Positions 1 through 34,618 of a stretch of DNA of 38,682 nt are shown here, one piece after another (the stretch's first letter is position 1; every line of letters begins with the position of its first letter). The DNA comes from Psammoneis japonica. Taxonomy: Eukaryota. Under the pieces are notes generated by a model. It made no database searches. It was not told the origin of the DNA and worked only from the letters and a program-made list of their open reading frames with translations. The stretch is taken from assembly GCA_008632985.1 (NCBI GenBank), contig QPGO01000180.1, forward strand, positions 97,332-136,013, given 5' to 3'. The position numbers and the translations under genes were made by a program.

Positions 1-16
1 CATCCAGTGCACCATT

Positions 17-2280: not shown

Positions 2281-2527
2281 CACAGTGAAAAAGGGAGCCA
2301 TCACTTGGCACTGGCGATTCCAAGCCCAGCCCCATGCCCCAATTGCTTCACCTGCTGGCGACTGTTTTCATCGTGGCAAACACTGTGAGTCTACATGCGG
2401 ACATGAACATTGCGTGTGTTCCAGACAACATCCATGTGACTGCATCGATTGACAAGAGACACTTCCACTGTGCCGTGTCATCGGAGTGCAGACAGCCGAG
2501 GCGGAGGCAGGGAATCCGCAGGATTCT
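2281..2527 (+). repeat. direct repeat copy B1 (TpA-depleted)
   Basis: Aligns end to end with 2768-3018, from cacagtgaaaaaggga to ggattct. Confidence 0.92.
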
Positions 2528-2767
2528 CGTAGCCAAGACTCCAAGCCAAGCAAGGAGAGGACCTCCTTGACTGGACCGAGAGTCACCGCGTGAATGTAGT
2601 GGCAAGATGGGTTGAAGGATGGACAACGGACGAGACGAGCGGAAACGAGGCCAGCCCAAGGGATCCCTCATTGTCTGGCAGGATGGGAGACACCATGGCA
2701 CTGTCGAGGCGTCTCCAAGGAGATGCCAACGATGAAAATTGAAAAACCCACCTCTCCCTCCCCTGCA

Positions 2768-3018
2768 CACAGTGAAAAAGGGAACCAATTGCTTGGCACT
2801 GGCGATTCCAAGCCTGGTCCCACACCCTAATTGCTTCACCTGCTCTAGCGACTATTTGCCATCGTGGCAAACACTATGAGTCTATATACGGATATGAACA
2901 TTACGTATATAATAGACAGCATCCATGTGATTGCATCGATTGATAAGAGACGCTTCCACTGTGCCATGTCATCGGAGTGCAGACAGCCGAGGCGGGGGAA
3001 GGGAATCCGTGGGATTCT
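2768..3018 (+). repeat. direct repeat copy B2 (distal part retains TpA)
   Basis: Aligns with 2281-2527. Confidence 0.92.
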
Positions 3019-5364: not shown

Positions 5365-6011
5365 GGTAAAACTAATAAAGTGTCTACCGTGTGTATTCTC
5401 GTTCTGCTATCGCCGCCATGCATTTGGCATTGGCGATGTGGGCGACGGCAAAAAACAACAAGAAAAAAGATCCAGAATCCAGAAAAGATTCGATGAGGTC
5501 GCGGATTTGATTCTGCGCACGCGATCTCAGAATAGAACGCTGGCAGATGGGCTGGACCATGCATGCGAGAGCCTTCATTGTACCGGCATGCTACCGGCAG
5601 ACCTAAGTCGTCAGGGCGAGCGGAGAGTATGGCTCTAGAGCCTCTACTCTAGCTAGACCTGGCTATAGAGTATAGAGTGCACCTACCTTATGCTTTATCA
5701 TCAGCATGCCAGAGCACAAAGCGATAATTGTATTTATCTAGCTACACTCTAGTAGGAATACGAAGTTTGCAAGAAATTGGAAATTGCCATTTCTGTCTCA
5801 TCAAGACCACGAGGACGTCAGTTCTCAACACGATTCGATGGAGCTCGCCACGAGGTACTAATTGCTGTCTATAACCTTCGGCGAAGAGAAAGAATTAATC
5901 GAACACGAAGTTGACTAATTTTTCTTTCATGCGTCACACAACATGGATCCTTGACGAATGACCCTTTCTTCCACTCATCCAAGTACACAGTACAAACTTG
6001 CCCCAATCCTT

Positions 6012-6965: not shown

Positions 6966-7273
6966 GGTCTTGTTTTTTTCTTCGCCCTCTGCGTACCGTA
7001 GTCATTGCTTCTTTTTCTCGCCGCCGCCTGTTATTCACGCACAGGCGAACGCGCGACTTGATCGCGCGGGCCAGAACGGCTGTGCGTCGTACGTCTGAAG
7101 ATGTGCTCCGTCCGTCCTCCGCCAGTCGCTCGATCCTCTTTCCGCTGCGATGCGATGTGGCTGATGGCCGCAGCACGCAGCATGGGCCATGGCGTATTAT
7201 ATCTCTTTTTAGCGGCAGCCACCTCTTCCACCCCCACAACTGCAAACAAACAAAATTCACAAACTAGTGTATT

Positions 7274-9150
7274 ATGAATAAATTGATTGGACTGATAGCC
7301 GCTTTGGCGGTCCTGACAAGAACTCGTTTTGTCAACTCGTTTGTTGTGACAAGCGCTGGACGACGACCTGCTTCTTTGCAGCATGCCGCAAGCCGAACTA
7401 CGTGCCGTCGAGCTACTGTAGAATCAGACAATACCGCTGATGCGATAGCTACATCTCCACTGGAGAAGAACGTTTTGGAAAAGATGTCTTCCAATGCAAA
7501 GGCCGCTAAGGAGTGGGGAGACATGTTTGATTTGCCGGATGAGATTTCTTTCTATGCTCTTTTTGCTGCTCTGCGGGAAGGAGCTCAGCTTGGACTCAAG
7601 GGAAAACCGCTCGTATTGAGAAAATCCGATATAATCAAGAGTATTCATGATGTTAGTGATAAAGGTGTTGAAGGATACTTTACGATGGAAGATTTGGAAA
7701 CCGCTGTTACCGAAGACTTTTTGGATGCGGATCGAGGATCAACCGACAATCGGAAAGGCTGGACGGTCCAATCGGTTTCCACTCCTCGTGGAAATTCCTT
7801 TGAAGAGGCTCGGATGACCTTTGAAGAAGTGCAAACTGCTCTAGAGAAGGGTACTGTTATCTTTAATGCATGCGGCGCTCACATTCCAAAGATGGCCGTG
7901 CCACCTTGGCGTGCACCGATGCTACCAGTCTTCCGTGTGCGGCCAACCTCTACGTGACGGCATCGGGGAAGCGCACCAGTGCTCCACCACATACAGATCG
8001 TCAGGATGTTGTGGTTGTACAGACATCTGGAAAGAAGCACTGGCGTGTCTATTCGCCACCAGACCCGTCTCTCAAGCCATCAGCGGACTGCTATGCGCGA
8101 GGAAAGTGGACGGACAATCTGCCCCTCTATGCACTCGAGTCAGAGATGGGTTGTGAGCTCTTGTTGGAAACTACTCTGGATGTTGGTGACGTGTTGTTCA
8201 TTCCAGCAGCTTTCCCACACACCACCGACACGGTCCATCCGGACTGCGAGGATAGCAAGGATACCAGCATCCATCTACGTTTAACTTTGAAACTCACGTT
8301 TGGGATCTCGACTATCTGAGTGCACGAAGGCTCGCACTCCGTCGCGCCTGCGTCTCTGACTCTGCCTTGGGACAAATGAGTGACGAAGAAAACAAATACG
8401 TTGGAAAGGTAAACATGCTGCCATCTCAAGTGAGAGACGATTTGTTTGAAGCGCTCCCTCTTGGGCTGTTGGAAAATGATGAGCAAGGAAAGGCGCTGTT
8501 GGACCAAGCAAGCTCTGAACTAGAGCGTATTAGCAAGGCTGTTGATCCTGAGACGGCGGCTGCGGTGCCGAGTAGCGTCTGGAAAGAAACAATGGAACGG
8601 CTTCGTCAACAGGGTATGGAATTGTTTGACATTCATCGGGACATGTACTTGGCCGCCATTGAGGAAGGAAGAACACGAGAAGCTGAGGATGCCATGACGG
8701 CGCATTTAGATAAACCAAAAACAATGACTGAGGAGCGAATGCGTCGACTGAATGTATTTCGAGTGCCACGATTCTATGATAAGGTGACCGAGAGTAAGCA
8801 ACAACTTACCGAGTGGTCGTATGCTGGCAAGCCAGTCGATGACTCGGGTACCGGAAGCGCAAGCGCAGCCCTACCAGAAAATTGGGCATTTACAATGCCC
8901 ATCAAGGTAGGAGATCAAGTGAGGCTGACCTTGGAGGAGCTTCTTTCCAGCTACAGTGACGAGAGCATCAGCTGGCGGCTTTGACGTTCAGTTCTTTGAC
9001 GGGGATAAGGAGACTGGATTGGATCGAAGTATGCTCAGGCTATTAACGCCACCAGCAGACCCCGCGGCTAGTAATGTTGACACTTCTGGAATGACAAAGA
9101 AGCAACTGAAGCGCTGGAAGAAACAACAAGAAAAGTTAAACAAAAAGTGA
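7274..9150 (+). CDS. JmjC/cupin 2-oxoglutarate oxygenase (RIOX/NO66/RoxA-like), probably plastid-targeted; several apparent frameshifts
   Basis: ANLYVT...APPHTDRQDVVVVQTSGKKHWRVY and LDVGDVLFIPAAFPH give the H-x-D...H metal ligands. Hydrophobic N-terminus followed by VNSFVV resembles the ASAFAP motif. Pieces 7274-, 7870-, 8367- and 8956- lie in different frames. Confidence 0.8.
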
Positions 9151-9229
9151 ACGCGATTCTTAAGTCATGCATTTTTAATCAGTGACTTATTAGTGTACAC
9201 GCATACTATGAAATAATGGCGGCTTTCTC

Positions 9230-10390
9230 TTAGTAGATCTCCGCCGTCAAATTCCCTTGACTCTGTAATTCATTTTCGTCCCCTCCTGCGTCGAAAAACA
9301 TGTCTTTTGTCAAAGAGTCCTGCGGATCTCTCCCTACTGGCTCAGTCTCCGCTTTTGCCGGCCAAAAGGAAAAACTGGTGCGACTTTGTTCGCTAACGTT
9401 CATCTCTTCTTCCTCCGGAATTTTGGATACACGTCGCTCTACGTCCACAGGAGCAGCCACCACGACTGCCTCTGGTATTTCGTCTGTTTCTGCGACACTA
9501 TCGTGGTAATTTGACGGCACCGAGTCGCCCTCCTCATTTGCTTCAGCGTTTTCTTCATCTTCTTCGTCCTCTTCTTCATCATCATCCTTATCTCGACGCC
9601 AGAAAAATAAAAAGGCAAAGAACCCTTGTTTTTCTTTTTCCTCAGGTTCTTCCTCGATCTTTTTGTTCTTCTCCTTTTTCGCACGAACAAACATAGGCTC
9701 TGGTTTCGGTATAACACAAAGAAAGAGACTTACAACAAGATAGCATGCGCAAGACGCAACGGCATAGGCAGCTCCAATTTCAAAATCGCAAGGATACGAG
9801 CCCTTTCCGAGGGATTCTCCCGGGTTTTGACTACGGTAGTAAGCGAGCATATCATAAACTTGATGATGAGCAAAGCATACGGTACTTGTTCCATACTGTA
9901 GACATAAAACAGCACGTCTGATAATATCGGACCACAAGATCCAGTACTCACCAAAAATCACTTGCAAACAAGAATCCGGTAAGAGATATACCGACCGCAG
10001 CAAAGAAGAACAGTGTGCATTCTGCACAACGAGCGCCCTTGAATCGACAGCACGTAAACTCTATCAGCAACAAGAGCAGCCCGGCAAGCCCAATGCGTTC
10101 CCAATGGCAATCCCGATTCGACCCGTCGTCATCTGCCAGCTAAGATCATCTTTTTCTTCATCATTCATGTTTCTGCAGCTTTCGCCTTCCAATTCAATTT
10201 TGAAGAGACCCAAGTTCCCAGACGTCACATTTCTGCCCCCAAACTCAAAGTTATCGTCATTAGCCGGTTCCAGGCTGAACGTAGTAAATTCGCACGTTAG
10301 TAATGCCAAAATACTCAGCACTAGAGCAGCAATGGCTGTGGTCAAAATTAAAACTCTACAGTGAACGCAAGCGACATCACGGGACAACAT
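9230..10390 (-). CDS. multi-pass membrane protein with acidic C-terminal tail (claudin-like topology); exon structure unresolved
   Basis: TM1 (LILTTAIAALVLSILALLTC), GNLGLF..C loop, further hydrophobic segments (IGAAYAVASCACYLVVSLFLCVI) and an E/D-rich tail, across ORFs 10064..10390, 9730..9954 and 9230..10027. Confidence 0.6.
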
Positions 10391-10926
10391 AAAAAAATTG
10401 TGTGAGATCTACTCGTGAAAATCACGTGATTGATGAGAATCACCCTCGAGATAACTCACTGGACCCAGACTTTACAATCCAACATACAGCTTTTGCAACA
10501 TCCCATGTTAGAATCCTACACTGCAATAACAAGGTGCCATGGACGACGGCTTTGCGACTTCAACACCCAAACTCGGACACTCGCCCTGCCTTTGGAAGCG
10601 TTGAACATGATACCGGTATATGTGGCAGGTGGCAGGTGGCAGTCATCAGTCAGTCATGTCAAATGATCAGATAACGGCACGGACATTCTCAGTGAAATTT
10701 ATAACATATACTACATTGGTAATATAGGTGAGTTAAAATGATATCCACATTTTAAAATAAGACGAGTTCAATGAATATATAAATAGCCTTATACAAAATT
10801 TGTGGATATTGAATTTCCAAAAATCAAAGATCCAAAATCTTCAAACATCACAAGAAAATCGAGAAAATCTGAAATTCTGATGAACCTGCCAGCTGCCAGC
10901 GCTATCAACGAGAGAAACGAGAAACC

Positions 10927-17900: not shown

Positions 17901-18131
17901 CAACCAACAGGCAAGCAGAGCAATGACAAACTTGAACGCAAACAACGACGGAATATTTTTGCGCCCTGACTGTTTCATCTCATAGGATAACTTATGCTGA
18001 AACACTGTGCAGTATTCTGTAGACATAGACGTACTTCTTACACCGTTGCCGTCGCCTTCCATCATGGTTCCGCTCGTTTTATTTCCTACCGGTACTGTAT
18101 GTTGCTGTATGTCTGTATGTCGTCTCGTCAT
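15000..18131 (-). CDS. core-2/I-branching (GT14) glycosyltransferase, xylosyltransferase-like, multi-exon; start codon uncertain
   Basis: YAVLTH, FVVHVDGK, RVNWGGFSMVNATL, SSYPIASN, SSQWFI, ADETFFGTVL and FARKF are GT14 motifs. N-terminal TM plus INDS..LEVFWVN...NSYEGHKF domain; Cys-containing ricin-B-like C-terminal repeats. Apparent 1-nt frameshift near 16478. Confidence 0.85.
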
Positions 18132-18601
18132 TGCGCGTCCGCCGTCGTCCGCCCGCAAAAAAATCGCAAGGGATAAAACGCGCACGTCTGCATGTGCGTC
18201 GCAAAGCATGGCGCATCGCGACATCCTCCCGGCCATGTGAACAGCCAAAGCAGAGCTGCAGGCAGAACATTGCGATGAGCTGCCATGTGGTAGAGCTGAA
18301 CATTCCTTGCTTATGTTGCATGGCACATGACTGGACTGGAATGCAAGTGGAAGCCACACGCCTCAGAAGAGCTCCACGTCTTGTCTCCTCGCTTTCAAGC
18401 CACCCAACAACAGCTTCGAGCTCTGGCTCACAGCTGCAAGGGCGGGGACAACCAAACAGACCAAACACACAATGACAGTCAAAAATTGTTGCACATGAGC
18501 CAACACAGTTGCACAAAAGCCATTCCAGGGTGAGACACCACACACGACAATTGATCAGCATCACAAAATTGCCGACGACTCAACTGCAATCCTGTTTGCA
18601 C

Positions 18602-21600
18602 AGTTGGACAAATGCTGTGTGATGATGCTGTGCACAACACATGCCCAAATGTGTGTGCAGAGAACGGACTCAACAATTGGCCGAGTGGCAATTTCTTGCC
18701 TCTTGGGTTGTTGAGAACCGCCCGCACTCGTCAGGTGCCGGCAGCAGTGTGCAGCACTCTGAGTGGTTGTGAGTCTTTGCGCTTCCTGAGGTTGCTGGTT
18801 CGAAATGGCCTCAAATCCAAGCCTCCTTTTCTTTCTCGGCCTGCCCCTTTCCAACCCCATCCAGGGTGGGCGGTTGGGCTTCGAACCCACTCCTCCCTTG
18901 GCCGGGTGCGCCACATGGCACCAACCCATCCTGCCCATCAGAGGGAGTGCATGGTCAAAATTTCGTAAGTCCGCCGTGCGGATGCACCACATGGCGACAA
19001 CCCATCCTGCAACAAGAGGGAGAGTTGGACAAATGCTGTGTGATGATGCTGTGCACAACACATGCCCAAATGTGTGTGCGGAGAAGGGGCTCAACAATCA
19101 GCCGAGTGGCAATTTCTTTGCCTCTTGGGTTGTTGAGAACCTCCAGTGCTCGTCAGGCAGTGTGCAGCATTCTGAGTGGTTGTGAGTCTTTACGCTTCCT
19201 GAGGTCGCTGGTTCAAATCGGCCTCAAATCCAAGCCTCCTTTTCTTTCTCGGCCTGCCCCTTTTCAACCCCATCCGGGGTGGGCGGTTGGGCTTCGAACC
19301 CACTCCTCCCTTGGCCGGATGCGCCACATGGCGCTAACCCATCCTGCTCAACAGAGGGAGTGCATGGTCAAAATTTCGTAAGTCCGCCGTGCGGATGCAC
19401 CACATGGTGACAACCCATCCTGCGACGAGAGGGAGAGTTGAACAAATGCTGTGTGATGATGCTGTGCACAACACACGCCTAAATGTGTGTGCGGAGAAGG
19501 GACTCAACAATTGGCCGAGTGGCAATTTCTTGCCTCTTGGGTTGTTGAGAACCACCCACACTCGTTAGGCACCGGCAGCAGTGTACAGCATTCTGAGTGG
19601 TCATGAGTCTTTGTGCTTCCTGAGGTCGCTCGTTCGAGTCGGCCTCAAATCCAAGCCTCCTTTTCTTTCTCGGCCTGCCCCTTTCCAACCCCATCCGGGG
19701 TGGGCGGTTGGGCTTCGAACCCACTCCTCCCTTGGCTTGGCATGGCCGGATGCGCCACATGGCACTAACCCATGGCAATCGTCCAGCTGCGCAGGTGGCT
19801 CTTCATGAACTGTGCAGGAAATGCACTGGAACTTGCGCAGAATCCCATGACAACACAGTTCCATTTCTGTGACGACAAGCAGAAAGGAACGGTCCAATCT
19901 GGTGCAAGTTGCACAACGACACGAAAGAGGGAATCCTCTTCATTTCCTTCATTCCACTCAAATGATCCCAATTTGGCACATTGCACCGTAAGAAATGGCC
20001 ACGCACATTGCACTTTGATGTGTCTCGGCATGGCAAACATCATGGGGCAGACGTGTTTTCCATGTGTGATCTCTTTCTGTTGCTGTTGTAAAAAATTTGA
20101 CACACTGACTTGGTTCCCTGGGGGGCTTTGGTTGCGACACACGGTGCAAACGGTTGCATGCAAAGACTCGTGCCTCAATTGCTGCACGCTGCGGGCAACA
20201 TCTGAATGGTCGACAACGTCGCCGAGGTAAGTTCTTTGTGCGTGTTTTTAATTTTGTTTCGTTTTCCCATTTGCCAAAGATCATTGTTGTTTTTTGTTTC
20301 AGCTCACAAGGTGGATTGATCATCTCATGTGGTCGATTGTTGCATCTGTGATGTTGGCATGTTTTTCAAGTCGTTGGTGCCGCCAAAGCACACCCGTTTG
20401 GGATCTTTATGCTTCACCCCACTCTACATCCTTTGGTGCACCCATTGTGTACATTGATGTGGATTTGTGACTTGCTTGACATCCTTCTTGGGGGCTTGGT
20501 CGGCACACAATCACGGCATGTCGTGTTTCGGCCATCACAATTTTTGGAAAGTGCACGCCGTAGGAACAAAATGACGCGATGGAGCCTGGAGGACACTTGC
20601 GATGATGGCAATTGTCAGACAGTCTTGTCACAGTCCAAAAAAGGTAATCCCACGAGTGTGTTGTAATTGTTTGAGTGTTTGACTCGTTTTGAAGAAACTT
20701 GCATGCCTCACAAGCATTTTTTGTGCGTCTCGTTCATGCGTGCAGGTGTCTGGTCTAAAGTGATCCTTTCCACCTGCCCTTCAACCGCATCATCATCAAC
20801 ATGCAAGACATGATGTCATCCGCATCATTTTGGGAGATCTTGATGGTGCAACTACGACTCCAGGCTTCACAATGTGTAAAATGGGGAGGTTGAGGCTTTT
20901 GTTGGCGGGCTCATCGCCTCCTCTTGAATGCGCGGATGCCACGAACCACTGATGGCACTTGGGGGCATAAAAATTGGCAAGGCGACTCAGCTCCACCTCT
21001 AAAAGGTGCCCCAGTGAGCACACTGTGACATGTTGCCCCAATGAATTGTCACTGTGCATGTTGTTCCACTCATGTTTTCATTTTGCCTGTCATTTTTTCA
21101 GCATGGACATCTGGGACTGCGAGCGCTTAAAGTGGCCTTTCCATGCCAATGCTCTGCACGACTCAAGTCCTTTGACAACAGTTGTTCCTTCAGGGAATCA
21201 GATTGTGGATCTTTTTGCATCTAGTCGGGTCTGCCAGAGAGGAAATGAGGTGGAGCCGGCTTTCAAAAGTGATGGAGTTCTGGCTCATCGGCAGTTGTGC
21301 ATCTCAACGGCAGCGTTGGCAGTGTGCGTGTAAATTTTCTGTGAGCAATGAAGCAGCAGATGATGCATTTAGATGGATCATGGCATGTTGCTGTTCTTTG
21401 GAGTCTTCACTGGCTAGAGAGCTGCGACTGCCCAGCAGCCACATGCATCGGAAGCGCCAATCGTCTGGGCGTCGTGCATGCCCCACTGCGGCACGAATGA
21501 ATCTCTCCCTCTCTCCTCCTCCTCCTTTTCCTCTTCTTTTTTTCACAAACTCGGAGCCACCTACATGACCGGACATGTGCCTGACCCATCCTGCCCACCA

Positions 21601-21837
21601 GAGGGAGTGCATGGTCAAAATTTCGTAAGTCCGCCGTGCGGATGCGCCACATGGCAATGACCCATCCTGCGACGAGAGGGAGAGTTGGACAAATGCTGTG
21701 TGATGATGCTGTGCACAACACATGCCCAAATGTGTGTGCGGAGAAGCGACTCAACAATTAGCTGAGTGGCAATTTCTTTGCCTCTTGGGTTGTTGAGAAC
21801 CTCCCGTGCTCGTCAGGCAGTGTGCAGCATTCTGAGT
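18602..21837 (+). repeat. tandem array of ~415-420-bp units, interrupted by a TIR element
   Basis: Units start agttg(g/a)acaaatgctgtgtgatgatgc at 18602, 19023, 19436 and ~21682. The array breaks at 19773 and resumes in register at 21582. Confidence 0.92.
19774..21581. mobile_element. 1.8-kb TIR element with GG termini and 8-bp TSD (Merlin/IS1595-like ends; no transposase recognised)
   Basis: 28-bp imperfect TIRs 19774-19801 and 21554-21581 (19/28 match, ggca...gtcc...aggtggctc). TSD TAACCCAT (19766-19773) / TGACCCAT (21582-21589). Neighbouring array units show the empty site. Confidence 0.8.
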
Positions 21838-22173
21838 TGCACAACTCGGTTGCGGACCGCAATCGAAATGACTGCAATCTGCTGATTGTTTGCATCACAT
21901 GGACACAAGGATTGCAATCATGTTTGTGATCGATTGCAGTCAAGTCATGAGTGAAATTTAGTCGTGAGTCCAGGACATTTTCTGATCAATGAGGCGAACA
22001 CGGGACTGACAAGAACCGAGCGCGAGAAACGAGAACAACAGATCAAGGGTGAATTTTGGACAACATGCCCAAAAACAAATGAAAAGTCTCAATGAGGTCT
22101 CATAATTTTGGAGCAATGACCGATTGACGCGCCATTTTCATCTGGTCATTTGGTTTCTTTTTTGAAGAATGCA

Positions 22174-24760
22174 ATGAGCGTGGCTGCAGACGATGTGATG
22201 GACGTGTCGGAAGGCAGCGATGGTGAGAAATTGGTGGACACGGGGTCAAATGTAGAGGAGAAGGTGGACGACTTGGAAAAAGGTGTGCAGGGAGACAATG
22301 CACAGGTTGCTCCTTGGGAAAATGATCCTTCATTCAAAACAAGAGCAAACAGCCCTGGCAAATGAGGGACCAAGTCACCCGTGTGGGATCATGTGCTTCG
22401 CTTGGCATCAGATCACCCCAAGTCAAAAGAGGGACACATGCATGCATGCACTCTCCCTGATTGTCCCCAATGATTTGTGAAGCTGGTGAAGCCCAAGGAC
22501 AAACACTGCTGCACTGCTTCTAAAGCCATCAAGCACATGAAGGACATCCACCCCGACGACCGCGCGAATGAAGCGAAAAAAATCGTGATTTTGCAAAGCA
22601 TGAAAAACTCACGCAACAGCAGTTGGATTTTGCTGTGGTGGCCAGTGAAAAAGATGATGCTCAGGTGCATGTAAAAAATCCACTGAAAGGGTTTAAGCCG
22701 TCCGAAGATGAAATGAGATTGTCATCTCAAGCCCAGTGGCGTGCATGTTCTGAGCAAGCAATCTCCTGTCGCACCTTTGCGGACAAGCATTTTGTTCAGA
22801 TGATGAAATGTCAAGCCAGCGGAGATCCAAATGCACCTGCTCTGTTGCAATGCAAACTCAAACAATGTGTGTCGGTGGAATTTACAGTTTTCATTCGGTT
22901 TGCCATGATCATGTTTAAGCTCAAGAAACAGCAGAGTTTTGGTTTGTCCCATGCCCAAGTCATTCATGATGGAGTCACTCTTGCAAATGGCAAGAAATGT
23001 CAATCAGCTGGCATGCAGTTCATTGATCCAAGGTGGATTGAAAACACAGTGATTTGTCTTGGGTTTGAGCATTCACAACACAATGCTGATGACAAGGTTG
23101 CCGAGCCACTTCAAGACATGCTCTTGTCGATCAATGCAACTTGACGATGGAGGAAGCTGTTGCTTTGATGGCATCAGACAGTGCCGCCCTTGGAGTGTCA
23201 CGGCAGTTTGTTGAAATTGAAGACACTGAAGCATGTGATGTGCATGACGGAGACAAGACAGGACAGTCTGCAGTGGGGGCATTGGCACGCTCTAAAAACA
23301 AGGTTAAAGTTGATCCATTCGAGGATGGAGCGGCTGTGATGGACAAAGCAAAATCTGCAGCAAAGTGCTTCCGATTTGACAAGTGCTTTTCCCAGTTGGA
23401 AATGGCATGCAAGGAAGCTGGCATTGCCGCCCTCAGACCCAAACTGGACATCAACGGCACAAGGATTGATGCAGGGCACCAGCCATTGAACTGGCTCCTT
23501 CATGTGCAACGAGGCGTTGCTCACTTCCACAACAGCAACAAGGATGCCTTCATTCTCACTGATGCCTTGTGGCAGCAATGGCAAGAATTTGAGGTGGTGC
23601 TCCAAGTGACACAAGTTCTTGCCAAAATGGCACAGCATGAGATGCTCTGTGCTGCAGTGCGTGTGGCCCGCTAATTCAGAAAATGACATGTGATGCATTG
23701 ACGAGCAGTGAGTTGTCGATGGTCATGCCAGAGAAGGTTGGCAAAGACAAAAATCTGCCATGATGTGAGCAAGAGCTTGCCTCATTCTCTTCTGCAGGAG
23801 CCACGTGCTGAGAAAGGGCGATCACAGAATTTGAGCAGCGATTCTTGGGCAACACCACCAATGAGCGACTCTCAGAGCCGGGCAAATTGCACTCAACAAC
23901 CGACAGCTGCTGGCTCTTCTTCTTGATCTTCACACTGCAAGGTGCACCTCTGTGCTTTCCCAAGATGTGCAAGAACGTGCCGTGAAATGTTTGTAAAAAA
24001 GCATGTCAAGTTCTGTGTGCAACATGGCAAGCACCAGCATCAAGCCAATTGGAAGAAGAGAGCTGAGGAACAGAAGAACAAGAAAGCCAAGAAACATGCA
24101 AATGAGGCTGCTGGGAATGATGATTTGAAATCAAACAGTGCAAAAGCAGCAAAGAGACGCAAGACTGAACAAGAAGGTGCCAAGAGCAAGGGCAGCGGCT
24201 CATCACACAGCATCAACAACACCGTGGACTTGTCTTTCCTTGGCAGCTCAGGGGAGAGGAGTCTGGCTCCTCTGACAGTGAAGAGGACAATGAAGAGCCA
24301 ATTGAGTCCACTTTGGTCATGAAGACAAGGAAAAGGCATCAAAGGAATTCAAAAAAGCACTCAAACGGTGGAGTCGAAAGGAAATTGAGTGGCACAAAGA
24401 GCACCCTTCTTGTGACATTCTGGCAGATTCGCCAGACTTGATCCAGGATGTCATGAAGTTGGACATTGGAAAACTGTGCAAGAAACTTGAGTTGAGTGAC
24501 AAGAATTGGAAGATGCGTGGTTTTCTCCCTGTTGTGGCCGGCTCGTCTCGTGGTCAGATTGGAGCACTGAATGCAGAAAGCTGTGCCGAGTGAATCAGCT
24601 CGATTGCACAGTTGGCGTTGCATGACAGGAACACTTTGCTTGATGAGAAGGAACTCAGAATGTTGGCAATTCTCCATGTGAATGAATCATTCATGGTGCA
24701 CATGTGAACGCATTGCAGGGATTATGTGAAGAAATTGCAACAGTGCGGGATGACAATTGC
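22174..24760 (+). pseudogene. hAT-superfamily transposase, degenerate
   Basis: BED-finger-like KSPVWDHV...CTLPDC...KHMKDIHP; IHDGVT, MASDSAA, CDVHD (CxxH), NGTRI; C-terminal GALNAESCAE*ISS...RNTLLDEKELRMLAILHVN resembling the hAT dimerisation domain. Several in-frame TGA stops, apparently from CGA. TIRs not identified. Confidence 0.82.
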
Positions 24761-26516
24761 AAAGAACAACATCAACCCAGAAGAGTGATCATGGAATCAG
24801 CATCCTTGCAGCTTCAAACATCAAACAACAAGCAAGCAACAGCATGTTTTTTGACAGTTTGCCTTGACAACGCAGGTCAGATGCATTCAAAAAAGCAGAT
24901 GCAATGCAGTTCAATCGCAAAAAAAATCTTGCCTGCAGCACCATCACCTGCGCAGTGGGCACTCTTGCAGGGGCCAATCGCTGTTGCAATTGCAATCAAT
25001 TGTTGCACGTGGCAATCACTTTGCAATTGCAATCTTTCGATTGCTGCAAAGCCTGGTGCAATTGACGGTTGCAATCCTCAATTGTTGGGAGGAAGTCAAC
25101 GATTTTACAATGCTGCAATTGATGCAAAAGTGGCTCCAGCACACCCAGCAATGAGGGCCAGGGTCGTGAGAAAAATGACACTCAACTGTGCAAGGGTGCA
25201 CAACCAAACAGATTAAACACACTGCAACAGTCCAAAATTGTTGCACAAGAGCCAGTTGAGTTCCAAGCAAAGCCATCATGTGCAAATGATGCAAAAGCAG
25301 CATGAGGTCAGCTCCAGTGCCTTGGCTGCCAAAAATGAGGGTGAGGGCAAGATTGATCATGCTCCTCAACTCCAAGAGCACACGCGGCCAAACAAGTTGA
25401 ACATCCAGGCATTTTTGTCAGTTTCCAAGTCTGACCATCATGCACAAATGATGATGCAAAAGCAGCTCCAATGGACCCAACAACAAGATTGCCCTCAACT
25501 GCATGGAGACACATGACCAAATGAACCAGGCACCCAACATCAGTCCAAATTGTCATGTGCAAGCCAATCCAGGTGTTTTTGTCAGGTTCCAAGTCCAGCT
25601 GTCATGCACAGTCAATGAGAAGCAGTTCCTGATGCACCCCAGATTGACCGACAATGCTGGTCACTCAGGTTGAGCTCAATCCAGCAGCATGTCACTCACA
25701 TGGCACCAGCAGTGTGAACAATGGAACATTGGCATCTTGACCCACCAGAACATGAGATGAAACAAACAACTCTGAGCAAGACAAGGGCAGGCAACAGGCA
25801 AAACCATCAAAACATGACACTGCACCACAAGATGCACAGCTGCAAATCAACACACCCAATTTTCTCACAACAGCACCGCAGGTCCATCACACATGTGAGT
25901 CACAGGATGGGGGTTGTTGGTGGCATCAAGATGATCATCTTTGAAACAAGCATTGTAGAGACAAGCACCACTTTCACTTTTGATGATTGTTCAATTTGTG
26001 CGCTCATTGCTTGTCATTGGAAAAGCACCAGAAGGTGCGCAGCATGACAGCAGCAGCAGCTGATTTTGGGTGGATGGGCTGGAAATGTGTGCATCCACTT
26101 TTTCAAAGTCCTGTGACTCAGCCACATTGTTGGTCAGTCCAATGTTTGACTCAAGTGAATTTCAGGGGGTGGGTGAGGCCCTGTAGAGAGCAAACATGAT
26201 GCTGGTGCAACACCCCCAAAACATGTTGGCGTGGGGCCACTGAGTGGACAAAAACTTGCTGATGGCATCATTTTTTAGATGTGCTCCTTGCTGCAGCAAA
26301 CATCTGCCTCATTTTGACAACCCACCCACCCACCCACACACTCACACACACACAGAATGGTTTGAAATGACAACCATCACCCAGCTGCTGCTGCTGCTGC
26401 TGCTGTTTTTTTTGCCTGCAATTGTCAGATGCAAAATTCCAGGATTTCACCACAGGAAAATCACACGCTTTTTTGCGATTGGGCACAACAAAGCCAAAAG
26501 AGGTTGGCTGGGGAGA

Positions 26517-27560
26517 GCAGCAGACAAAATGCAGACAACAAGCAACAGAGTCCTCAGTGCTGAGCCAGCAGTCTCATGGTGGGCATCAATTGTGTGTGTG
26601 GGGGGCATTGCCATGTAGAAACATGAGGGGTGATGGTGGTGCTGTTTTGGCTCACAACAGCATGTTGTGTTTTGCAGGTTGTTTTGCCAGCTGCATCACA
26701 GTGCATGGTTCAAAAAACAGCTGAAATTTCAGCTCAACAGAGGAGAGCTTGCCTCATTTTTGTTGTGCTGCCTTTTGCTGGGTTTTTTGCTCAAAAATCA
26801 AAAAGTTCCCTTGGCACACAGGGGCTGTCATTGACGAGTGGGGAAAAATGAGCTGAGTCTTTTTCAAAAGGAGGGGCTGACACCTTCTTGGCCATCACAA
26901 AACAGCAAAATCAGGTGGCACCAGCAGCGCGGCAAGCTCTGGCTGTTTCATCTTGTGGGGTGACTCATGCTGGAATGCTGTGCAGCACTCAGCAGACACA
27001 GATTTGTGCTTCCAGCAGACAAAATGCAGACAACAGGCAACAGAGTTCTCAGTGCCAAGCTGGCAGTCTTGTGGGCTTCAATTGTGGGGGACAATGCCAT
27101 GCAGCAGAAACGTGAGAGGGGTGGTGGTGGTGTTTTGGCTCGCAACAGCATGTTGTGTTTTGCAGATCATTTTGCCAGCTGCACCATGATGCATGTGAGC
27201 TGGTTCAAAAAACAGGCTGGCATTTCAGCTCAACAGAGGAGAGCTTGCCTCATTTTTGTTGTGCTGCCATTTGTTGCTGGGTTTTTGTGCTAAAAAAATT
27301 CCCTTGGCACACAGGGGCTGTCATTGATGAGCTGCAAGAAATGAGCTGGATCTTTTTCAGAAGGAGGGGCCAACACCTTCTTGACCATCACACAAAACAG
27401 CAAGATTGGGTGGCACCAGCAGCCAACAGGCAAGCACAGCAGCGCGGCAAACTCGAGTGCAGACAGAGCCTTTTTTGTTCTGGCTGTTTCACCTTGTTGT
27501 GGGCGGGTGGCTCATGCTGGAATGCTGTGCAGCACTCAGCAGACACAGACTTGTGCTTCT
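26517..27560 (+). repeat. two diverged tandem copies of a ~500-bp unit
   Basis: cagcagacaaaatgcagacaac at ~26517 and ~27013; shared blocks tttcagctcaacagaggagagcttgcctcatttttgttgtgctgcc and ctcatgctggaatgctgtgcagcactcagcagacacag. Confidence 0.85.
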
Positions 27561-28267
27561 TGCACTGCCGCCACCACCACCTCTTGCCATCATGGTCTTG
27601 CTCATTTTTGTTTGTGGCTCACCCGTCACCACAACAGAAGTCGCTCAAAAATGTCGCGAGAGTCACAACCAACATTTTGCATGAGGAAAAATGCACCAAA
27701 TCATGTGCAAATGTGCAAAATGTCATGCAAAAGGGTGGCTGGAGCCAATGATTTTGTAGGAACTCAACTGAAACGTCGTCTGATCACAGTCATTTTGACT
27801 CACATGGTGAAGAGCAACGCCTTTGATCAGATTTCCCGAGAAGTTGACATTCAAACACGGATGGGCAGAGAGACGTCGTTTTTGCTGCACCACATCTATC
27901 ATACCGTAGAATCTGCCGCTACTCAAAAATTAAAATCAAGTCCGACATGGAAGGTGACCACCCGTGCCGTACCAAGGATATAACTACCGTATGTCCTTGG
28001 ACGACACCCACCGGACGGCACGCTACGCACGTCCCTTGTTGAAGGTTTGCCTGGTTGAAGGTGACGCGAGGCAGCTGACATCGATCTTCTCTCGCTTTTT
28101 ATTATTTTTTTCAAGTTTTTTTGCATTTTGTTTTCCCGTGCATAGTATTATCGCACCGGATGTGCCTTGGAGTTTGTTTCTATCAATAATTTAGGTATTC
28201 CATCCTTCGTCCAACCAACAATTCGTTCCCAAGTCTTCACATAGGGCTACGAGTCGCAGCATCTATC

Positions 28268-30206: not shown

Positions 30207-30349
30207 ACTGTTGTAATTTATCCTTCTGGTGACTATTTCAGAGCCACCTCAGTCCTCTAAGGTCTGATCCTGAGGCTAAAATAGACAAGCTTGTTATCAC
30301 AATACTTTCTAAGAGTTAAAAGAGAATAATGACTGCTTCCATCATCGGC
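30207..30349 (-). mobile_element. solo LTR-like copy of the copia family at 34619
   Basis: Reverse complement aligns with 34620-34759, with a long identical core, and ends ...ttacaACA. No clean TSD found. Confidence 0.75.
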
Positions 30350-31830
30350 TGTTTTGTTCACTGCAGATGAGATTCTCTTCATTTATGCTCCGAATATTTT
30401 ATTCTGAGCAACGCTTTATATTTAAATTATCCCGACACAATGTGGGACATTCAGAGCAAATAAGAGTTAATTAAGGCGATAACGCCCACGCAGAGCACAA
30501 TCAGAGTCACCCCTGTGGTAGGGGAGAATATGGTGATGTCATGGTTACGTGGCAGTTTATATCTTATTCATTGTATTTTTATATAAATGTCCTCACATAT
30601 ATTTATGCATTTGTACACAAATGCTAATAGTAGCAGGAAAAATCCTGAACCATGTTCTCCCCTAAAACTCTAACCACCAAAAACCGAGGGGTCGGAAGCG
30701 CACTTTTGGGAGCTCTTTTTCTCCGCACAAAAAACACGCGTTTCGTCGACTCGACCATGACGACCTCCCGTTCTTCGTCCCCCACACCACCTGACGTGTC
30801 CCCGCCTGCCACATCTGATGCGGCAGTCCCTCCTGCATTGGCCGGTGCCGTCACACCCGCTGTCGTTGCCCAAACACAGCCGATTTGCCATCCGGAGGAT
30901 TTGGGCTTCTGTTCGCCGGATCCTGTGCCTGAAACACAAACACAGCGCCGTGATTGGTCCACTCCTGTCATTGCGTCCCCGGAAAAACTGGATTCTCATT
31001 CGCATCGCCGTGTTGTGGAAGGTGCTGATGAGCCTTCTCTCAAACGGTCTGGGGTGCAGCTCCGAAACCAAACCGACGTCAAGGTTCAGTGGGCGTGGCA
31101 GAGGAGCATCTATGACAGGAGGTGTGGTGACAACCTTTCTCAGGATGATTGTTCCTGGGCAGAACCTTGTCTGTCTGGAGGTGATTGAGACTCACCCAGA
31201 GCCCAGCGGAACCAATCGGAGCCAACAACAAGTGTCAAGATGAACCGCAGCAACATGTGAAGGAGGACGCAGCCAATGGAATGCGGGCAGAGAAGGTGCC
31301 GGCATGCAAAGTGGCAGCATGGCTGTCGACAAGGCACTGGTTTTGAAGGTCTGACAGTGATGAACACAGTGAGCATTTGCCAAAAGCATGTTGCTGCCTG
31401 CCTCCATTTCAGCAACATGCAAAAACAGCACGTTGTGCATCACATGCAGAATTCAAACGGCGAGAGTGGCCTCTTGTGGAACTGCACACAACGACCCAGT
31501 CCTGGAAAATGGAGTGGTGTCCAAGTCACATGCACCACTTGAAACCTTGCCAAGTCGCCTGCAAACAAATGCCAATTCGCTGACCTCTCCAACTTGAAAC
31601 TAAAAAACTGTGAAGGCATGCCTGCCATCCAGTTGTCATCAGGTTTCTAAGTTGCAGAGAGCTGCATGATGTGTCTGTACATTCTAAAGATTAGACTGCA
31701 CTCGAGAGCCAACCAAGAGGCACCATTCATGTCCATTGATGTGTCGTCCATCAGCAGGCCGTGGCTGCGTGGGTTTCCTGGCCCGCCGTCATCCGCCATC
31801 CATTGTGTTCCTTCCAAAGCAAAAACAACA

Positions 31831-32708
31831 ACAGCATCAACAGCGACTGCAGCAGCAAGGGCAGGATTGACAGTGTCGGGCATGCTGGGGGGCCGAAACG
31901 CAGGTGCGGCGTTGGAATTCGTGACAGTGTCTGTGGGAGGCGGTGGGGCGAGAATGAAAGAAGTGTGAGTCATTGGCATTTTATTGTGGACGTCATTGGC
32001 AAAATGCAATGACGACGCGTTCCAGGTCTAGGTGGGACCTCGCACTACTGAACTGTGACATCGATGGTTTTTTGAATCACGTCGTATGTCGCGCACGTAG
32101 ATTTCTACGTGATTTTTTCGACATTTTGTGTCATTTTACGGTACACTTATTGAGCGATCCGTCCAACAACTTTTGACATTTTTTGTTACAGCGCGATTCT
32201 ACAATGTCTTAAGAATCGCGTAGGGCAGGCGCATTTGCAAAAACGTCAAGTGGTAACAGGCATAATTGCACCACAAACTTGGCCATTTATTTGATGTTGA
32301 AGTTAAACATATATCCATTAATTAAATTCTCGTACTACGGAGCTCGCACGTAGAATTCTACGGGCCCAATGTCACACGGAGTCCCACCTAGGGCTGGAAC
32401 GCGTCTGACAGCATCAACAGTGCCTGCGGCAGCAAGGGCAGGAGTAACAGCATCGGGCATGCCAGGGGGCCGAAACGCAGGTGCGGCGTTGGAATTCGTG
32501 ACAGCATCTGTGGGAGGCGGTGGGGCGAGAATGAAAGAAGTGTGAGTCATTGGCACTTCATTGTGGACGTCGTTGGCAAAATGCAATGACAGTGTCAACA
32601 GCACCTGCGGCAGCAAGGGTGGGAGTGACAGCATCGGGCATGCCAGGGGCCCGAAACGCAGGTGCGGCATTGGAATTCGTGATGGCATCTGTGGGAGGTG
32701 GTGGAGCG
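31831..32708 (+). repeat. ~181-bp tandem repeat (about 2.6 units) split by a MITE
   Basis: Units at ~31831-32013, ~32408-32590 and ~32590-32708 share gccgaaacgcaggtgcggc(g/a)ttggaattcgtga. Confidence 0.88.
32014..32405. mobile_element. 392-bp MITE with 25-bp TIRs and 4-bp TSD (TGAC)
   Basis: GACGCGTTCCAGGTCTAGGTGGGAC at 32014-32038 and GTCCCACCTAGGGCTGGAACGCGTC at 32381-32405 (23/25 match). TGAC at 32010-32013 and 32406-32409. Confidence 0.9.
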
Positions 32709-34618
32709 TGCAAACAACAGTGTGAGTTTGCAGCATCTTGTTTTGTGCGCATCACACCCACGAGAACTGGAACAATGACATCACCTGTTGCATCAGTGTC
32801 ATTGGCAACGGTGTCAGCAGGATCGGCGTCCTGGGAAGGCGATGGGGAAGAACCACGAGGCATCATCATGGTCGAGTCGACGAAACGCGTGTTTTTTGTG
32901 CGGAGAAAAAGAGCTCCCGAAAGTGCGCTTCCGACCCCTTGGTTTTTGGTGGTTGGAGTTTTAGGGGAGCTGTGGAACAGGAATTTTTGCTTGTGGAACA
33001 TGCACATTCGTGTGCACGTCAACATTAAAACTCAACGCACGGTGAAGCCGTGCGTGCACAACCATGCACACACACACAGCTCCCCTGCCACAGGGGTGAA
33101 TCAGAGCAAATTTGGTTGTTCGGAGCCACAGAATTTTGTTCAGAGCATTGCACGCAGAGCATCAATTTGCAAATTAGAGCATTGTGCTGACATTCAGAGC
33201 GCTGCTGTGATTGTGTCCATTCAATCAGAGCACAACTCTGAATGATGTTTGGATGCCCGTGGAATCTCCATTTAATTGGAGCAAAGCTCTGAATGAACAA
33301 CGGACATTTGGCTAGAGCAAAGCTCTGAACAAACAACGGACGACGACAGCCTCTCCATTTAAACAGATCACAACCATGAACAAATTTGCTGATGCTCTGA
33401 ACAACTGTCATTTACGAAGCTGTGCTTCGATTGACTCTGTCAACAAACACATCCACCAAACCCTGACTGTGCCGGTGAAATCAATCCCAAGCAATTGTGT
33501 GTCACATTGCGTCGTGCGCATGTGTTGCATTGCCTTGTCATTTGTTGTTGTTGTTTCGGGTTGTCCTTTGGCGCCGTTTGTCAGATGCAGCTGACATGGT
33601 CTTTTGACAACACTGCACACACAATGCAAACCTGCAATTGCAAGAACCATTCAATGCGTTCATGCAAACCCAAACTGCCTTTCTTTGTCCAACCTTGCAA
33701 CTGCTTGATCCAAAAACAACATCACACTTTTCGCCACAGCACTTTGCAGGGAACAGTGGGTTGGTTTTGAAGCACACTTGAGCAAAATATTTTCTGTCAT
33801 CTTGATGGACCAAGGCATGGAACAAGTGAGCCTCCTCGCACTTGCACTGCAAACACAAACAAACAAACACAATTGGTTTGCGTGCGTGAACAAGACAACA
33901 CAACAACAGGCATGCCAAATCAACAATGACGTTTGCTCCATGCCTGCAAATTGCAAGCAGTTGTTTGATCCACTTGAGCCACAACGAGTGTTGTGGTTTT
34001 GTGTGTGCGCTTGTTGTTTGCTGTCTTTGTCTTTGTTGCAAACAAACAACAAAGTGAGAGGTGATGTTTCCAAGACACTGCGCACAATCCGCACGACTTC
34101 ACCATGCATTCTCACCGCTTTGTTTTGCAATGGATTTAACAATGGTTTAGAGTGGTTGGCTGGTTGAGTCTGCAAAAGAAATGCCATCATGACACACATT
34201 GAATGCCGTTAGATCAACTTCTCAATGGCAATCCGGAGCACCAACAATGCTCTCACCTTTTCATTTGCGCCATTTGCCATTGTCTCTTTGACCTTTCTCA
34301 TTGCAAACAACAATGGCTGTGTGAGACGTGTCCGATGAATTGCACAATTGGCTGCAAAACAATGTGATCTTACCATCTTCTGTGGTGCTCTCTCTGGCAT
34401 TTCAGCAACTGGGGATGGTTGAGTGTGGCATCCAGCAATGACGCCCCAAAGTGGTCAGAGCAATTGTTTCATTTGCAACTGGAGCACCGACAATGCTCTC
34501 ACCTTTTCATTGTTGCCACTGTTGGAAATGGTGAATTAAAAGTTCAAACACTGAAATTAGACAGTGCGAAGAAGACGCATGCGTCAGCGCTCATGTGCTC
34601 TACGTGAGGCACTGAAAC

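What the first reader, a model, noticed from the sequence alone, without database searches (positions are those of the whole stretch)
19766..21589. A target-site duplication mutated after insertion, polarising the change
Seen: TSD copies are TAACCCAT and TGACCCAT; the same site reads TAACCCAT in array unit 2 and CAACCCAT in unit 1. TSDs are identical when formed, and TA is one step from both CA and TG. Inference: TA is ancestral, and the change occurred in chromosomal DNA after integration.
Basis: partly seen in the sequence, partly recalled or inferred. Interest (0 to 1): 0.8.

Follow-up and report, generated by a model that had tools for sequence, protein, structure and literature searches.

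The report
Transposon footprint records a TA-to-TG change
A small transposon sits inside a repeated element with its 8-base target duplicated on either side, and the one letter by which the two copies differ fits a process that is wiping the dinucleotide TA out of all mobile DNA in this diatom-like genome.

Summary
TAACCCAT (19766-19773) and TGACCCAT (21582-21589) flank a 1,808-bp insert (19774-21581) that breaks unit 3 of a 413-bp tandem array. Unit 2 reads TAACCCAT and unit 1 reads CAACCCAT. The insert is a real multi-copy transposon: it has imperfect terminal inverted repeats (16 of 25, P about 4e-5), and other copies in a public run end at the same two bases.

The reading "TA at insertion, A to G afterwards" is the most likely one, at about 0.7. 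The footprint alone is weak evidence. It is a single site, the outgroups are paralogous units, most family copies read TG at the homologous place, and a sub-repeat 76 nt downstream also reads TGACCCAT.

The wider context carries the case. All repeat DNA in the window has TpA observed/expected of 0.01-0.31, against 0.37-0.70 in genes. In two duplicate pairs that straddle a domain border, 17 sites read TA in the normal copy and CA or TG in the depleted copy, with none the other way.

The same TpA to TpG/CpA hypermutation was shown by mutation accumulation in Bigelowiella natans (2026 preprint). This window looks diatom-derived, so it is a new member of a known kind.

The parts
19766..19773 (+). 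Left copy of the 8-bp target-site duplication, TAACCCAT
19774..21581 (+). Inserted 1,808-bp non-autonomous transposon with terminal inverted repeats; multi-copy family; no recognisable protein
   Evidence: Boundaries from the unit alignment. Six contigs with unlike left flanks begin at 19774, and one contig leaves at 21581. Summed contig depth is 250-2400 against 60-150 in unique flanks. No family reached the 0.001 default among 13 insert ORFs; one chance-level row at the 0.1 cut-off asked for. TpA observed/expected is 0.18.
19774..19798 (+). 5' terminal inverted repeat
   Evidence: 16 of 25 positions match the reverse complement of 21557-21581, including the first 4 and positions 8-11 and 20-25; binomial P 4.3e-5, empirical 7e-5
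21557..21581 (-). 3' terminal inverted repeat
21582..21589 (+). Right copy of the target-site duplication, TGACCCAT; G at 21583 is the inferred derived base
18602..19773 (+). Host array, left part: units 1 (18602-19022) and 2 (19023-19435) and the left part of unit 3 (19436-19773)
21590..21837 (+). Host array, right part: the rest of unit 3 (21590-21682) and a terminal 155-nt 'head' module (21683-21837)
19335..19342 (+). Homologous site in unit 2, TAACCCAT (used as outgroup)
   Evidence: Other family copies laid here read G at 19336 in 2284 of 3031 depth, from 2 contigs.
18922..18929 (+). Homologous site in unit 1, CAACCCAT
21658..21665 (+). Paralogous sub-repeat site in unit 3, TGACCCAT; a possible conversion donor. 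Its counterparts at 18998-19005 and 19411-19418 read CAACCCAT.
18597..18601 (+). TGCAC, left copy of the 5-bp duplication flanking the whole array
21838..21842 (+). TGCAC, right copy of the 5-bp duplication flanking the whole array
   Evidence: A contig joins 18598 to 21842.
2288..3018 (+). Tandem duplicate pair straddling a border of a TpA-depleted domain (copy 1 at 2288-2775, copy 2 at 2776-3018); supporting evidence for direction
   Evidence: 12 sites read TA in copy 2 against CA (5) or TG (7) in copy 1, with 0 the reverse
30207..30343 (+). Arm of a 137-nt inverted pair lying in TpA-normal DNA; its partner at 34623-34759 lies in depleted DNA
   Evidence: 5 sites read TA here against CA or TG in the partner, with 0 the reverse

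Best explanation
A 1.8-kb non-autonomous DNA transposon with terminal inverted repeats inserted into unit 3 of a tandemly reiterated mobile element and duplicated 8 bp of target. The target then read TAACCCAT, as the neighbouring unit 2 still does. Later the A of the TpA in the right-hand copy became G. That change is one event of a process specific to TpA and confined to repeat domains. The process turns T:A into C:G on either strand (TA to TG or CA) and has almost erased TpA from every repeat region of the window. Shown here: the footprint, the transposon ends, the multi-copy status, the compositional domains and the direction in border-straddling duplicates. Inferred: that this particular mismatch was made by that process, and that TA was the pre-insertion state. 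The enzyme is also inferred. By analogy with the proposal made for Bigelowiella natans it could be deamination of adenine in DNA; nothing here tests that.
For: Footprint and ends: and (6 contigs start at 19774 with different left flanks; one contig leaves at 21581). Shared TA in unit 2. Domain composition: in 1-kb windows, TpA observed/expected is 0.01-0.31 and TG/CA is 1.3-2.1 in the repeat regions, taken as windows 1-3000, 18001-28000, 31001-32000 and 33001-38682 (window 32001-33000, at 0.44, left out). Genic windows give 0.37-0.70 for TpA and about 0.85-1.3 for TG/CA. There is a single TA in 24001-25000. Direction: 12:0 and 5:0 for TA in the normal-domain copy against CA/TG in the depleted-domain copy. 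Of the 40 rows shown (61 not shown), 6 have other family copies at 75% or more TA where the window copy has CA/TG, and 1 is the reverse; 4 of those 6 come from one contig. Hot spots: aligned dinucleotides with TA in either copy differ in 29 of 40, CG in 30 of 89, and dinucleotides that are neither TA, CG, TG nor CA in 192 of 1472. Adjacent double differences CA/TG number 23, against 13 for all other double types; the three array pairs are not independent. Within the array two sites show CA, TG and TA together (columns 77 and 332). Both strands are affected: TG and CA are about equally enriched, also in the copia ORF (1.58 and 1.50), which argues against strand-specific RNA editing. Precedent: in B. 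natans mutation-accumulation lines, 230 of 231 mutations in two integrated viral regions were A to G or T to C, and all of these fell on TpA (bioRxiv 10.64898/2026.01.13.699255; Results read).
Against: It is one site. The outgroups are paralogous units of the same array, and unit 1 reads CA, so the site is hypervariable. At the unit-2 homologue (19336) other family copies read G in 75% of summed depth, so TG may be the family's older state. The sub-repeat 76 nt downstream reads TGACCCATCCTGC, identical to the right-hand copy and its flank for 13 nt, so conversion could have made the TG. For a stationary reversible process a bare TA/TG pair carries no polarity; all polarity comes from unit 2 and from the other comparisons. 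Four singleton TAs in the array (columns 45, 132, 150, 178) are, by plain parsimony on the unit tree, gains of TA. Run X1 may be the sample the window was assembled from, and summed contig depth is not a copy number.
Confidence: 0.7

Rival explanations
1. The target read TGACCCAT at insertion. The left-hand copy later changed G to A, either by an ordinary G:C to A:T transition or by short-tract conversion from unit 2.
For: Family majority G at 19336 (75% of depth, 2 contigs). TGACCCAT at the paralogous site 21658-21665. G:C to A:T is the usual mutational bias; outside the hypermutable regions of B. natans the ratio is 2.65.
Against: It needs a gain of TA inside a domain where TA is otherwise being lost (17:0), and either a second, independent origin of TA in unit 2 or a conversion. 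Unit 2 and the left part of unit 3 differ 3 nt upstream of the site (CG against CA) and by a 10-bp indel about 25 nt upstream, which limits any conversion tract.
Confidence: 0.13
2. The target was TA, but the right-hand TG was copied by gene conversion from the sub-repeat 76 nt downstream or from another family copy. It would then not be a point mutation.
For: 13 nt of identity (TGACCCATCCTGC) between 21582-21594 and 21658-21670. The family is highly repeated.
Against: Identity stops after 13 nt on one side and at the transposon end on the other, which is very short for conversion (general knowledge, not tested). A point change at TpA is the commonest kind of difference in these repeats (29 of 40 TA sites differ).
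Confidence: 0.07
3. The duplication is not an 8-bp footprint. Either it is 6 bp (ACCCAT) with TG belonging to the element, or it is a longer imperfect 17-bp duplication made by another mechanism. In either case the 'mutated footprint' is an artefact of how the junction is parsed.
For: The 9 nt left of the right-hand copy match the target in 6 of 9 positions (P about 0.01). Footprints of other copies could not be read.
Against: The inverted repeats begin and end exactly at 19774 and 21581 (GGCA/TGCC). A contig of another copy leaves the element at 21581 and re-enters at 19774, and six contigs with different flanks start at 19774.
Confidence: 0.05

Closest known systems
TpA-specific A:T to G:C hypermutation of integrated viral DNA in Bigelowiella natans (Mettrop et al., bioRxiv 10.64898/2026.01.13.699255; I read the abstract, Results, Discussion and the Methods section on dinucleotides; supplements not seen)
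   Same: TA to TG or CA on either strand. The process is confined to particular domains of integrated or foreign DNA. The long-term signature is TpA depletion with CpA+TpG enrichment in runs of 1-kb windows. By my observed/expected values, taking the mean of TG and CA, 8 consecutive windows (20001-28000) pass their cut-offs of 0.43 or less and 1.52 or more. Transposon-type proteins are among the depleted sequences.
   Different: That work is a mutation-accumulation experiment in a chlorarachniophyte, with a giant-virus and a virophage insertion as the active targets (TpA Rho 0.45 in the large one). This window's genes have diatoms as their closest named relatives. The targets here are transposons, and the depletion goes much further (down to 0.01). 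It comes with CpG depletion (0.13-0.75), and the direction is inferred from comparisons rather than observed as new mutations.
Repeat-induced point mutation (RIP) of fungi
   Same: A dinucleotide-specific transition process that marks repeated or mobile DNA on both strands and leaves sharp compositional domains.
   Different: RIP turns CpA/TpG into TpA and so enriches TpA. Here TpA is nearly erased and CpA/TpG are enriched, which is the opposite direction.
Deamination of 5-methylcytosine at CpG in methylated transposons
   Same: It also feeds TG and CA, and it is also seen in these repeats: CpG is 0.13-0.75, and CG-type differences number 30 of 89.
   Different: It cannot remove TpA and cannot turn TA into TG. 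It explains part of the CA/TG alternation (column 405 of the array keeps CG, TG and CA) but not this footprint.
Eukaryotic transposons with terminal inverted repeats and 8-bp footprints (hAT and a few other superfamilies)
   Same: An 8-bp duplication, short imperfect terminal inverted repeats, and internally deleted derivatives in the family (joints inside the element).
   Different: There is no transposase in the element. Its ends are unlike anything else in the window, including the hAT-like gene remnant 0.6 kb to the right. The superfamily is left open.

Membership tests
DNA transposon with terminal inverted repeats and an 8-bp footprint (hAT-like) | Direct duplication of 8 bp of target at both ends | tested here: met
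   7 of 8 identical. Both copies align to the same 8 bp of units 1 and 2. P 3.8e-4.
DNA transposon with terminal inverted repeats and an 8-bp footprint (hAT-like) | Terminal inverted repeats starting at the first and last base | tested here: met
   16 of 25, with the terminal 4 of 4. P 4.3e-5, empirical 7e-5.
DNA transposon with terminal inverted repeats and an 8-bp footprint (hAT-like) | Several copies with the same ends at different places | tested here: met
   Six contigs with unlike left flanks start at 19774. Summed depth over the element is 250-2400 against 60-150 in unique flanks. All of this comes from one sample.
DNA transposon with terminal inverted repeats and an 8-bp footprint (hAT-like) | hAT transposase (RNase H-like core and dimerisation domain), or ends shared with an autonomous hAT element | tested here: not met
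   No Pfam family passed the 0.001 default in 13 insert ORFs; the one row at the 0.1 cut-off is a 13.9-bit flagellar-protein match, taken as chance. The end motif occurs only at the insert's own ends in the window. The element may be non-autonomous, so the superfamily stays open.
TpA hypermutation of integrated DNA (B. natans type) | Changes are A to G or T to C and fall on TpA | tested here: met
   The footprint mismatch is TA/TG. Border-straddling duplicates give 17 TA against CA/TG sites and 0 the reverse. TA sites differ in 29 of 40. The direction is inferred, not observed as new mutations.
TpA hypermutation of integrated DNA (B. natans type) | [quoted passage not shown] | tested here: met
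   Windows 20001-28000 (8 in a row) and 33001-36000 pass by my observed/expected values. Their exact Rho formula was an image that I could not read.
TpA hypermutation of integrated DNA (B. natans type) | Elevated rate of new mutations in those regions in cultured lines | not testable with these tools
   Needs mutation-accumulation or resequencing data from this organism.
TpA hypermutation of integrated DNA (B. natans type) | A DNA-acting adenine deaminase (an ADAT2-like candidate was proposed there) | not tested
   No genome is held. Nothing of the kind lies in the window.
RIP | C to T at CpA, giving TpA enrichment in repeats | tested here: not met
   TpA observed/expected is 0.01-0.31 in repeats.

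The most novel reading that the evidence does not exclude
A diatom-like alga, from a different eukaryotic supergroup than Bigelowiella, runs a DNA-level, TpA-directed A:T to G:C editing process on silenced mobile DNA, a 'reverse RIP'. Its domain borders are sharp enough to cut through a tandem duplicate within about 100 bp (near 2800-2850). It has driven TpA to about 1-31% of expectation, has left stop-poor pseudo-ORFs on both strands, and has marked host-side footprints such as this one. If so, the system is either ancient or recurrent among algae. Footprints, LTR pairs and border-straddling duplicates would give a sequence-only way to measure its rate, targeting and timing in any assembled genome.
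Probability: 0.6. Interest if true: 0.8.

Novelty: new member of a known kind. Interest (0 to 1): 0.6.

Why it matters
A footprint is host DNA that was duplicated at a known moment. A TA/TG mismatch in it therefore shows that the TpA-erasing process acts on integrated chromosomal DNA, not on a transposon's RNA or on free DNA before insertion. It also gives a direction and a clock. One footprint proves little. But the same window shows that the signature is pervasive and domain-bound in a lineage where I found no report of it in the held library. The only report found is a 2026 preprint on a chlorarachniophyte. A genome-wide count of footprint and LTR mismatches would turn this into a quantitative test that needs no culture work. 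There is also a practical consequence: in such domains TAA and TAG are erased, so long open reading frames are not evidence of genes or of recent transposon activity.

Tried and rejected
The following led nowhere or were set aside.

- **Metagenome scan.** One scan with the conserved motif around the site returned 4 loci. All match only the motif itself (24-34 nt, GC 0.42-0.65) and are unrelated.
- **Sequencing runs.** Only one sample was found: X1 holds 0.52 of the words, X2 and X3 next to none.
- **Empty site for the inner insertion.** Among the 8 joints listed, none skips only 19774-21589, so no empty site was seen. Because the output is truncated and built from contigs, this says nothing about absence.
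- **Pfam on 23 ORFs** (13 in the insert, 10 in the hAT-like region). No family passed the 0.001 default. At the 0.1 cut-off asked for, 5 rows in 3 ORFs appeared, all far below their curated cut-offs (best E 0.0013); I take them as chance.
- **Rfam and tRNA.** Rfam on 18300-22300 found nothing at E of 0.1 or less. There are no tRNA genes in the window.
- **Inverted repeats for the neighbouring hAT-like region.** No convincing ends were found.
- **ESM Atlas on the P450 ORF.** It was uninformative about taxon.
- **Earlier findings of this scan.** Nothing turned up by place, words or sequence.
- **Considered and dropped:** RIP (wrong direction); strand-specific RNA editing of retroelement transcripts (TG and CA are enriched symmetrically, and a DNA transposon and a host-side footprint are also affected); and CpG decay as the sole cause (it cannot deplete TpA).
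- **Not done:** plain parsimony cannot polarise the four singleton TA sites of the array, and I did not fit a rate model.
Full report
**What is at the coordinates**

The window is eukaryotic. It has spliceosomal-type introns and a copia-type gag-pol ORF running off its right end, and no genome is held for it.

A tandem array with a period of about 413 bp starts at 18602. The alignment of its units gives:
- unit 1 at 18602-19022;
- unit 2 at 19023-19435;
- unit 3 at 19436-19773, continuing at 21590-21682;
- a final 155-nt partial unit at 21683-21837.

Unit 3 is interrupted by 1,808 bp (19774-21581). The left homology ends with TAACCCAT (19766-19773). The right homology begins with TGACCCAT (21582-21589), so 8 bp of the unit are present twice, with one mismatch. 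The homologous 8-mers read TAACCCAT in unit 2 (19335-19342) and CAACCCAT in unit 1 (18922-18929).

**Is it a real footprint of a transposon?**

The first and last 25 nt of the insert are imperfect inverted repeats:
- 16 of 25 positions match, including the terminal GGCA/TGCC and positions 8-11 and 20-25;
- the binomial P is 4.3e-5, and the empirical P from 200,000 random pairs in the window is 7e-5;
- the shared end motif occurs nowhere else in the window.

Contigs of one public run were laid on 18300-22300. Summed depths were:
- unique flanks: 60-150;
- the insert: 250-2400;
- most of the array: 4,500-10,900.

The tool warns that summed depth is not a copy number, and that this run may be the sample the window came from.

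Six contigs with mutually unlike left flanks begin to match exactly at 19774. One contig leaves the element at 21581 and re-enters at 19774 after six other letters. Several contigs carry internal deletions of the element. These results fix the ends at 19774 and 21581, which is the register that makes the flanking duplication 8 bp long.

None of the 13 ORFs in the insert gave a credible Pfam match; the only row at the 0.1 cut-off is a 13.9-bit chance-level hit. The element is best called a non-autonomous, multi-copy DNA transposon with terminal inverted repeats and an 8-bp footprint. Its superfamily is left open.

A rival parsing is unlikely, and I give it 0.05. It would be either a 6-bp duplication with TG belonging to the element, or a 17-bp imperfect duplication suggested by 6 of 9 matches further left (P about 0.01).

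**What the footprint can and cannot say by itself**

If the 8-mers were identical when made, one of them changed afterwards in chromosomal DNA. That part of the inference is sound.

Which copy changed depends on outgroups, and the outgroups here are paralogous units, not empty-site alleles.
- Each unit holds an older internal duplicate of the motif about 76 nt downstream. It reads CA, CA and TG in units 1, 2 and 3. The TG copy (21658-21665) is identical to the right-hand footprint copy and its flank for 13 nt.
- At the unit-2 homologue (19336), the other family copies in the run read G in 2284 of 3031 summed depth, from 2 contigs. TG may therefore be the commoner, and perhaps the older, family state.
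- Given one mismatch in an 8-mer with a single TA, it would fall on the TA as a transition about one time in five by chance.

On its own the footprint is an anecdote.

**The context that gives it weight**

Dinucleotide counts split the window into two kinds of DNA.

| Region | TpA obs/exp | CpG obs/exp | TG and CA obs/exp |
|---|---|---|---|
| Genic 1-kb windows (3-18 kb, 28-31 kb) | 0.37-0.70 | 0.72-1.14 | 0.85-1.43 |
| Repeat windows (1-3 kb, 18-28 kb, 31-32 kb, 33-38.7 kb) | 0.01-0.31 | 0.13-0.75 | 1.33-2.09 |

(One mixed window, 32-33 kb, reads TpA 0.44 and CpG 1.01 and is left out of both rows.)

There is a single TA in 24001-25000. The array (0.14), the insert (0.18), the hAT-like region (0.06) and the copia ORF (0.14) are all affected. 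TG and CA are enriched about equally.

Comparing repeat copies within the window:
- Aligned dinucleotides with TA in either copy differ in 29 of 40. The figure is 30 of 89 for CG and 192 of 1472 for dinucleotides that are neither TA, CG, TG nor CA (7 pairs).
- Adjacent double differences of the type CA against TG occur 23 times. All other double types together occur 13 times (8 comparisons, of which the three array pairs are not independent).
- Such CA/TG alternation needs a palindromic intermediate, either CG or TA, that decayed on either strand.
- Within the array two sites still show the TA intermediate: column 77 reads TG, CA, TG, TA, and the footprint site (column 332) reads CA, TA, TA and TG. 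One site (column 405) still shows CG.

**Direction**

Two duplicate pairs straddle a border between normal and depleted DNA.
- In the 490-bp tandem pair, copy 1 (2288-2775) lies in depleted DNA. Copy 2 (2776-3018) runs into normal DNA: there are 0 TA in 2601-2800 and 14 in 2801-3000. At 12 sites copy 2 reads TA where copy 1 reads CA (5) or TG (7), and no site shows the reverse.
- In the 137-nt inverted pair, the arm in normal DNA (30207-30343) reads TA at 5 sites where the arm in depleted DNA (34623-34759) reads CA or TG, again with none the reverse.

A RIP-like gain of TA in the normal copies would give the same pairs. It would not explain the domain-wide absence of TA, nor the CA/TG doubles between the same copies.

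Against the family majority, 40 rows were shown and 61 were not. In 6 rows the other copies read TA at 75% or more where the window copy reads CA/TG; 4 of these 6 come from one contig. In 1 row the direction is reversed, and that row is 19336.

Under a regime in which TA is lost much faster than it is gained, retention of TA in both unit 2 and the left footprint copy is shared ancestry, and the right copy is a loss. The alternative needs a gain of TA plus a coincidence or a conversion. My estimates are:
- TA at insertion, then A to G: 0.7;
- TG at insertion: 0.13;
- conversion of the right copy: 0.07;
- mis-parsed junction: 0.05.

**Comparison with what is known**

Full-text searches found one paper describing this signature, a 2026 preprint on Bigelowiella natans (10.64898/2026.01.13.699255). 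I read its abstract, Results, Discussion and the Methods section on dinucleotides.

Its main results are:
- In 15 mutation-accumulation lines, 231 of 302 nuclear mutations fell in two integrated viral regions.
- 230 of those were A to G or T to C, and all of these fell on TpA.
- The rate was about a thousand times the background.
- TpA-depleted coding sequences were enriched for transposon-type domains.
- The authors propose adenine deamination in DNA and name an ADAT2-like candidate.

The present window meets their window-cluster criterion by my observed/expected values: 8 consecutive 1-kb windows at 20001-28000.

The window is not from that organism's reference:
- The P450 ORF has no identical protein in the collection. 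The best hit is 87% identical and unnamed, and a named relative is Thalassiosira punctigera at 40%.
- The bestrophin ORF's named relatives are the diatoms Grammatophora (53%), Seminavis robusta (47%) and Eucampia (43%).

I therefore file the finding as a new member of a known kind. It is the same mutational signature in a probable diatom, acting on transposons, deeper than in B. natans, and combined with CpG decay. No search of the held library returned a diatom report. The library lacks most subscription journals.

**Mechanism: what is shown and what is inferred**

Shown:
- the insertion, its ends and its footprint;
- domain-bound TpA loss with gain of TG and CA on both strands;
- the direction in border-straddling duplicates.

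Inferred:
- that the footprint mismatch is a product of that process;
- that the process acts on DNA in place. The footprint, being host-side sequence duplicated at integration, and the symmetric strand pattern argue for this and against RNA-level editing of retroelement transcripts;
- the enzyme, for which nothing in the window gives evidence.

**Things seen on the way**

- The whole array is itself an insertion. It runs from a 'head' module to a 'head' module and is flanked by TGCAC on both sides (18597-18601 and 21838-21842). One contig of the run joins 18598 directly to 21842.
- A 917-nt contig of a sister run holds a solo 156-nt head with unlike DNA on both sides.
- ORFs at 22572-23671 resemble hAT-type transposase cores in the ESM Atlas only (score 0.92-0.95, a lead) and have no Pfam match.
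- Because TAA and TAG contain TA, the depleted domains carry many long overlapping ORFs on both strands. The open 1,283-codon copia frame is therefore no evidence of youth.

Noticed in passing
window 2288-3018: A border of a TpA-depleted domain runs through a tandem duplicate. There are 0 TA in 2601-2800 and 14 in 2801-3000. At 12 sites the outer copy reads TA where the inner copy reads CA or TG, with none the reverse. This polarises the change better than the footprint does.
   Followed up: partly
window 30207-30343 and 34623-34759: A 137-nt inverted pair, 93% alike. The arm in normal DNA keeps 11 TA and the arm next to the copia ORF keeps 6. All 5 TA-type differences run the same way.
   Followed up: partly
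window 18597-21842: The whole 413-bp array (head-body repeated, ending in a head) is itself an insertion flanked by TGCAC on both sides. One contig joins 18598 to 21842, which is an allele or locus without it. A purine run lies just before each head. It may be a miniature LTR-type element in tandem form; primer-binding site not tested.
   Followed up: partly
window 19774 and 21581: One contig goes from the last base of the insert, through six other letters, to its first base. This means either head-to-tail copies or a circle junction of the element family.
   Followed up: no
window 22100-23700: A remnant of a hAT-like transposase gene. The ESM Atlas neighbours of ORF 22572-23141 carry ZBED1 RNase-like and DUF659 families (scores 0.91-0.95). 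There is no Pfam hit and no clear terminal repeats. TpA observed/expected is 0.06.
   Followed up: partly
window 18000-28000 and 30600-38682: There are many long ORFs overlapping on both strands, and a 1,283-codon open copia frame, in TpA-depleted DNA. Erasing TA removes TAA and TAG, so open frames there are not evidence of genes or of recent activity.
   Followed up: no
window 24001-27000: The extreme of the signature. There are 1, 3 and 3 TA per kb, CpG observed/expected falls to 0.13-0.36, and TG and CA reach about 2.
   Followed up: no
window 18505, 22062, 22071: In the unique flanks the run's contigs read CG where the window reads CA. These are three CpG-type differences between the window and the run, so the run may not be the very same strain or haplotype.
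   Followed up: no
window 752-2191: A long ORF inside the left TpA-depleted domain looked to me, from memory only, like a tyrosine-recombinase-type transposon protein. Not tested.
   Followed up: no
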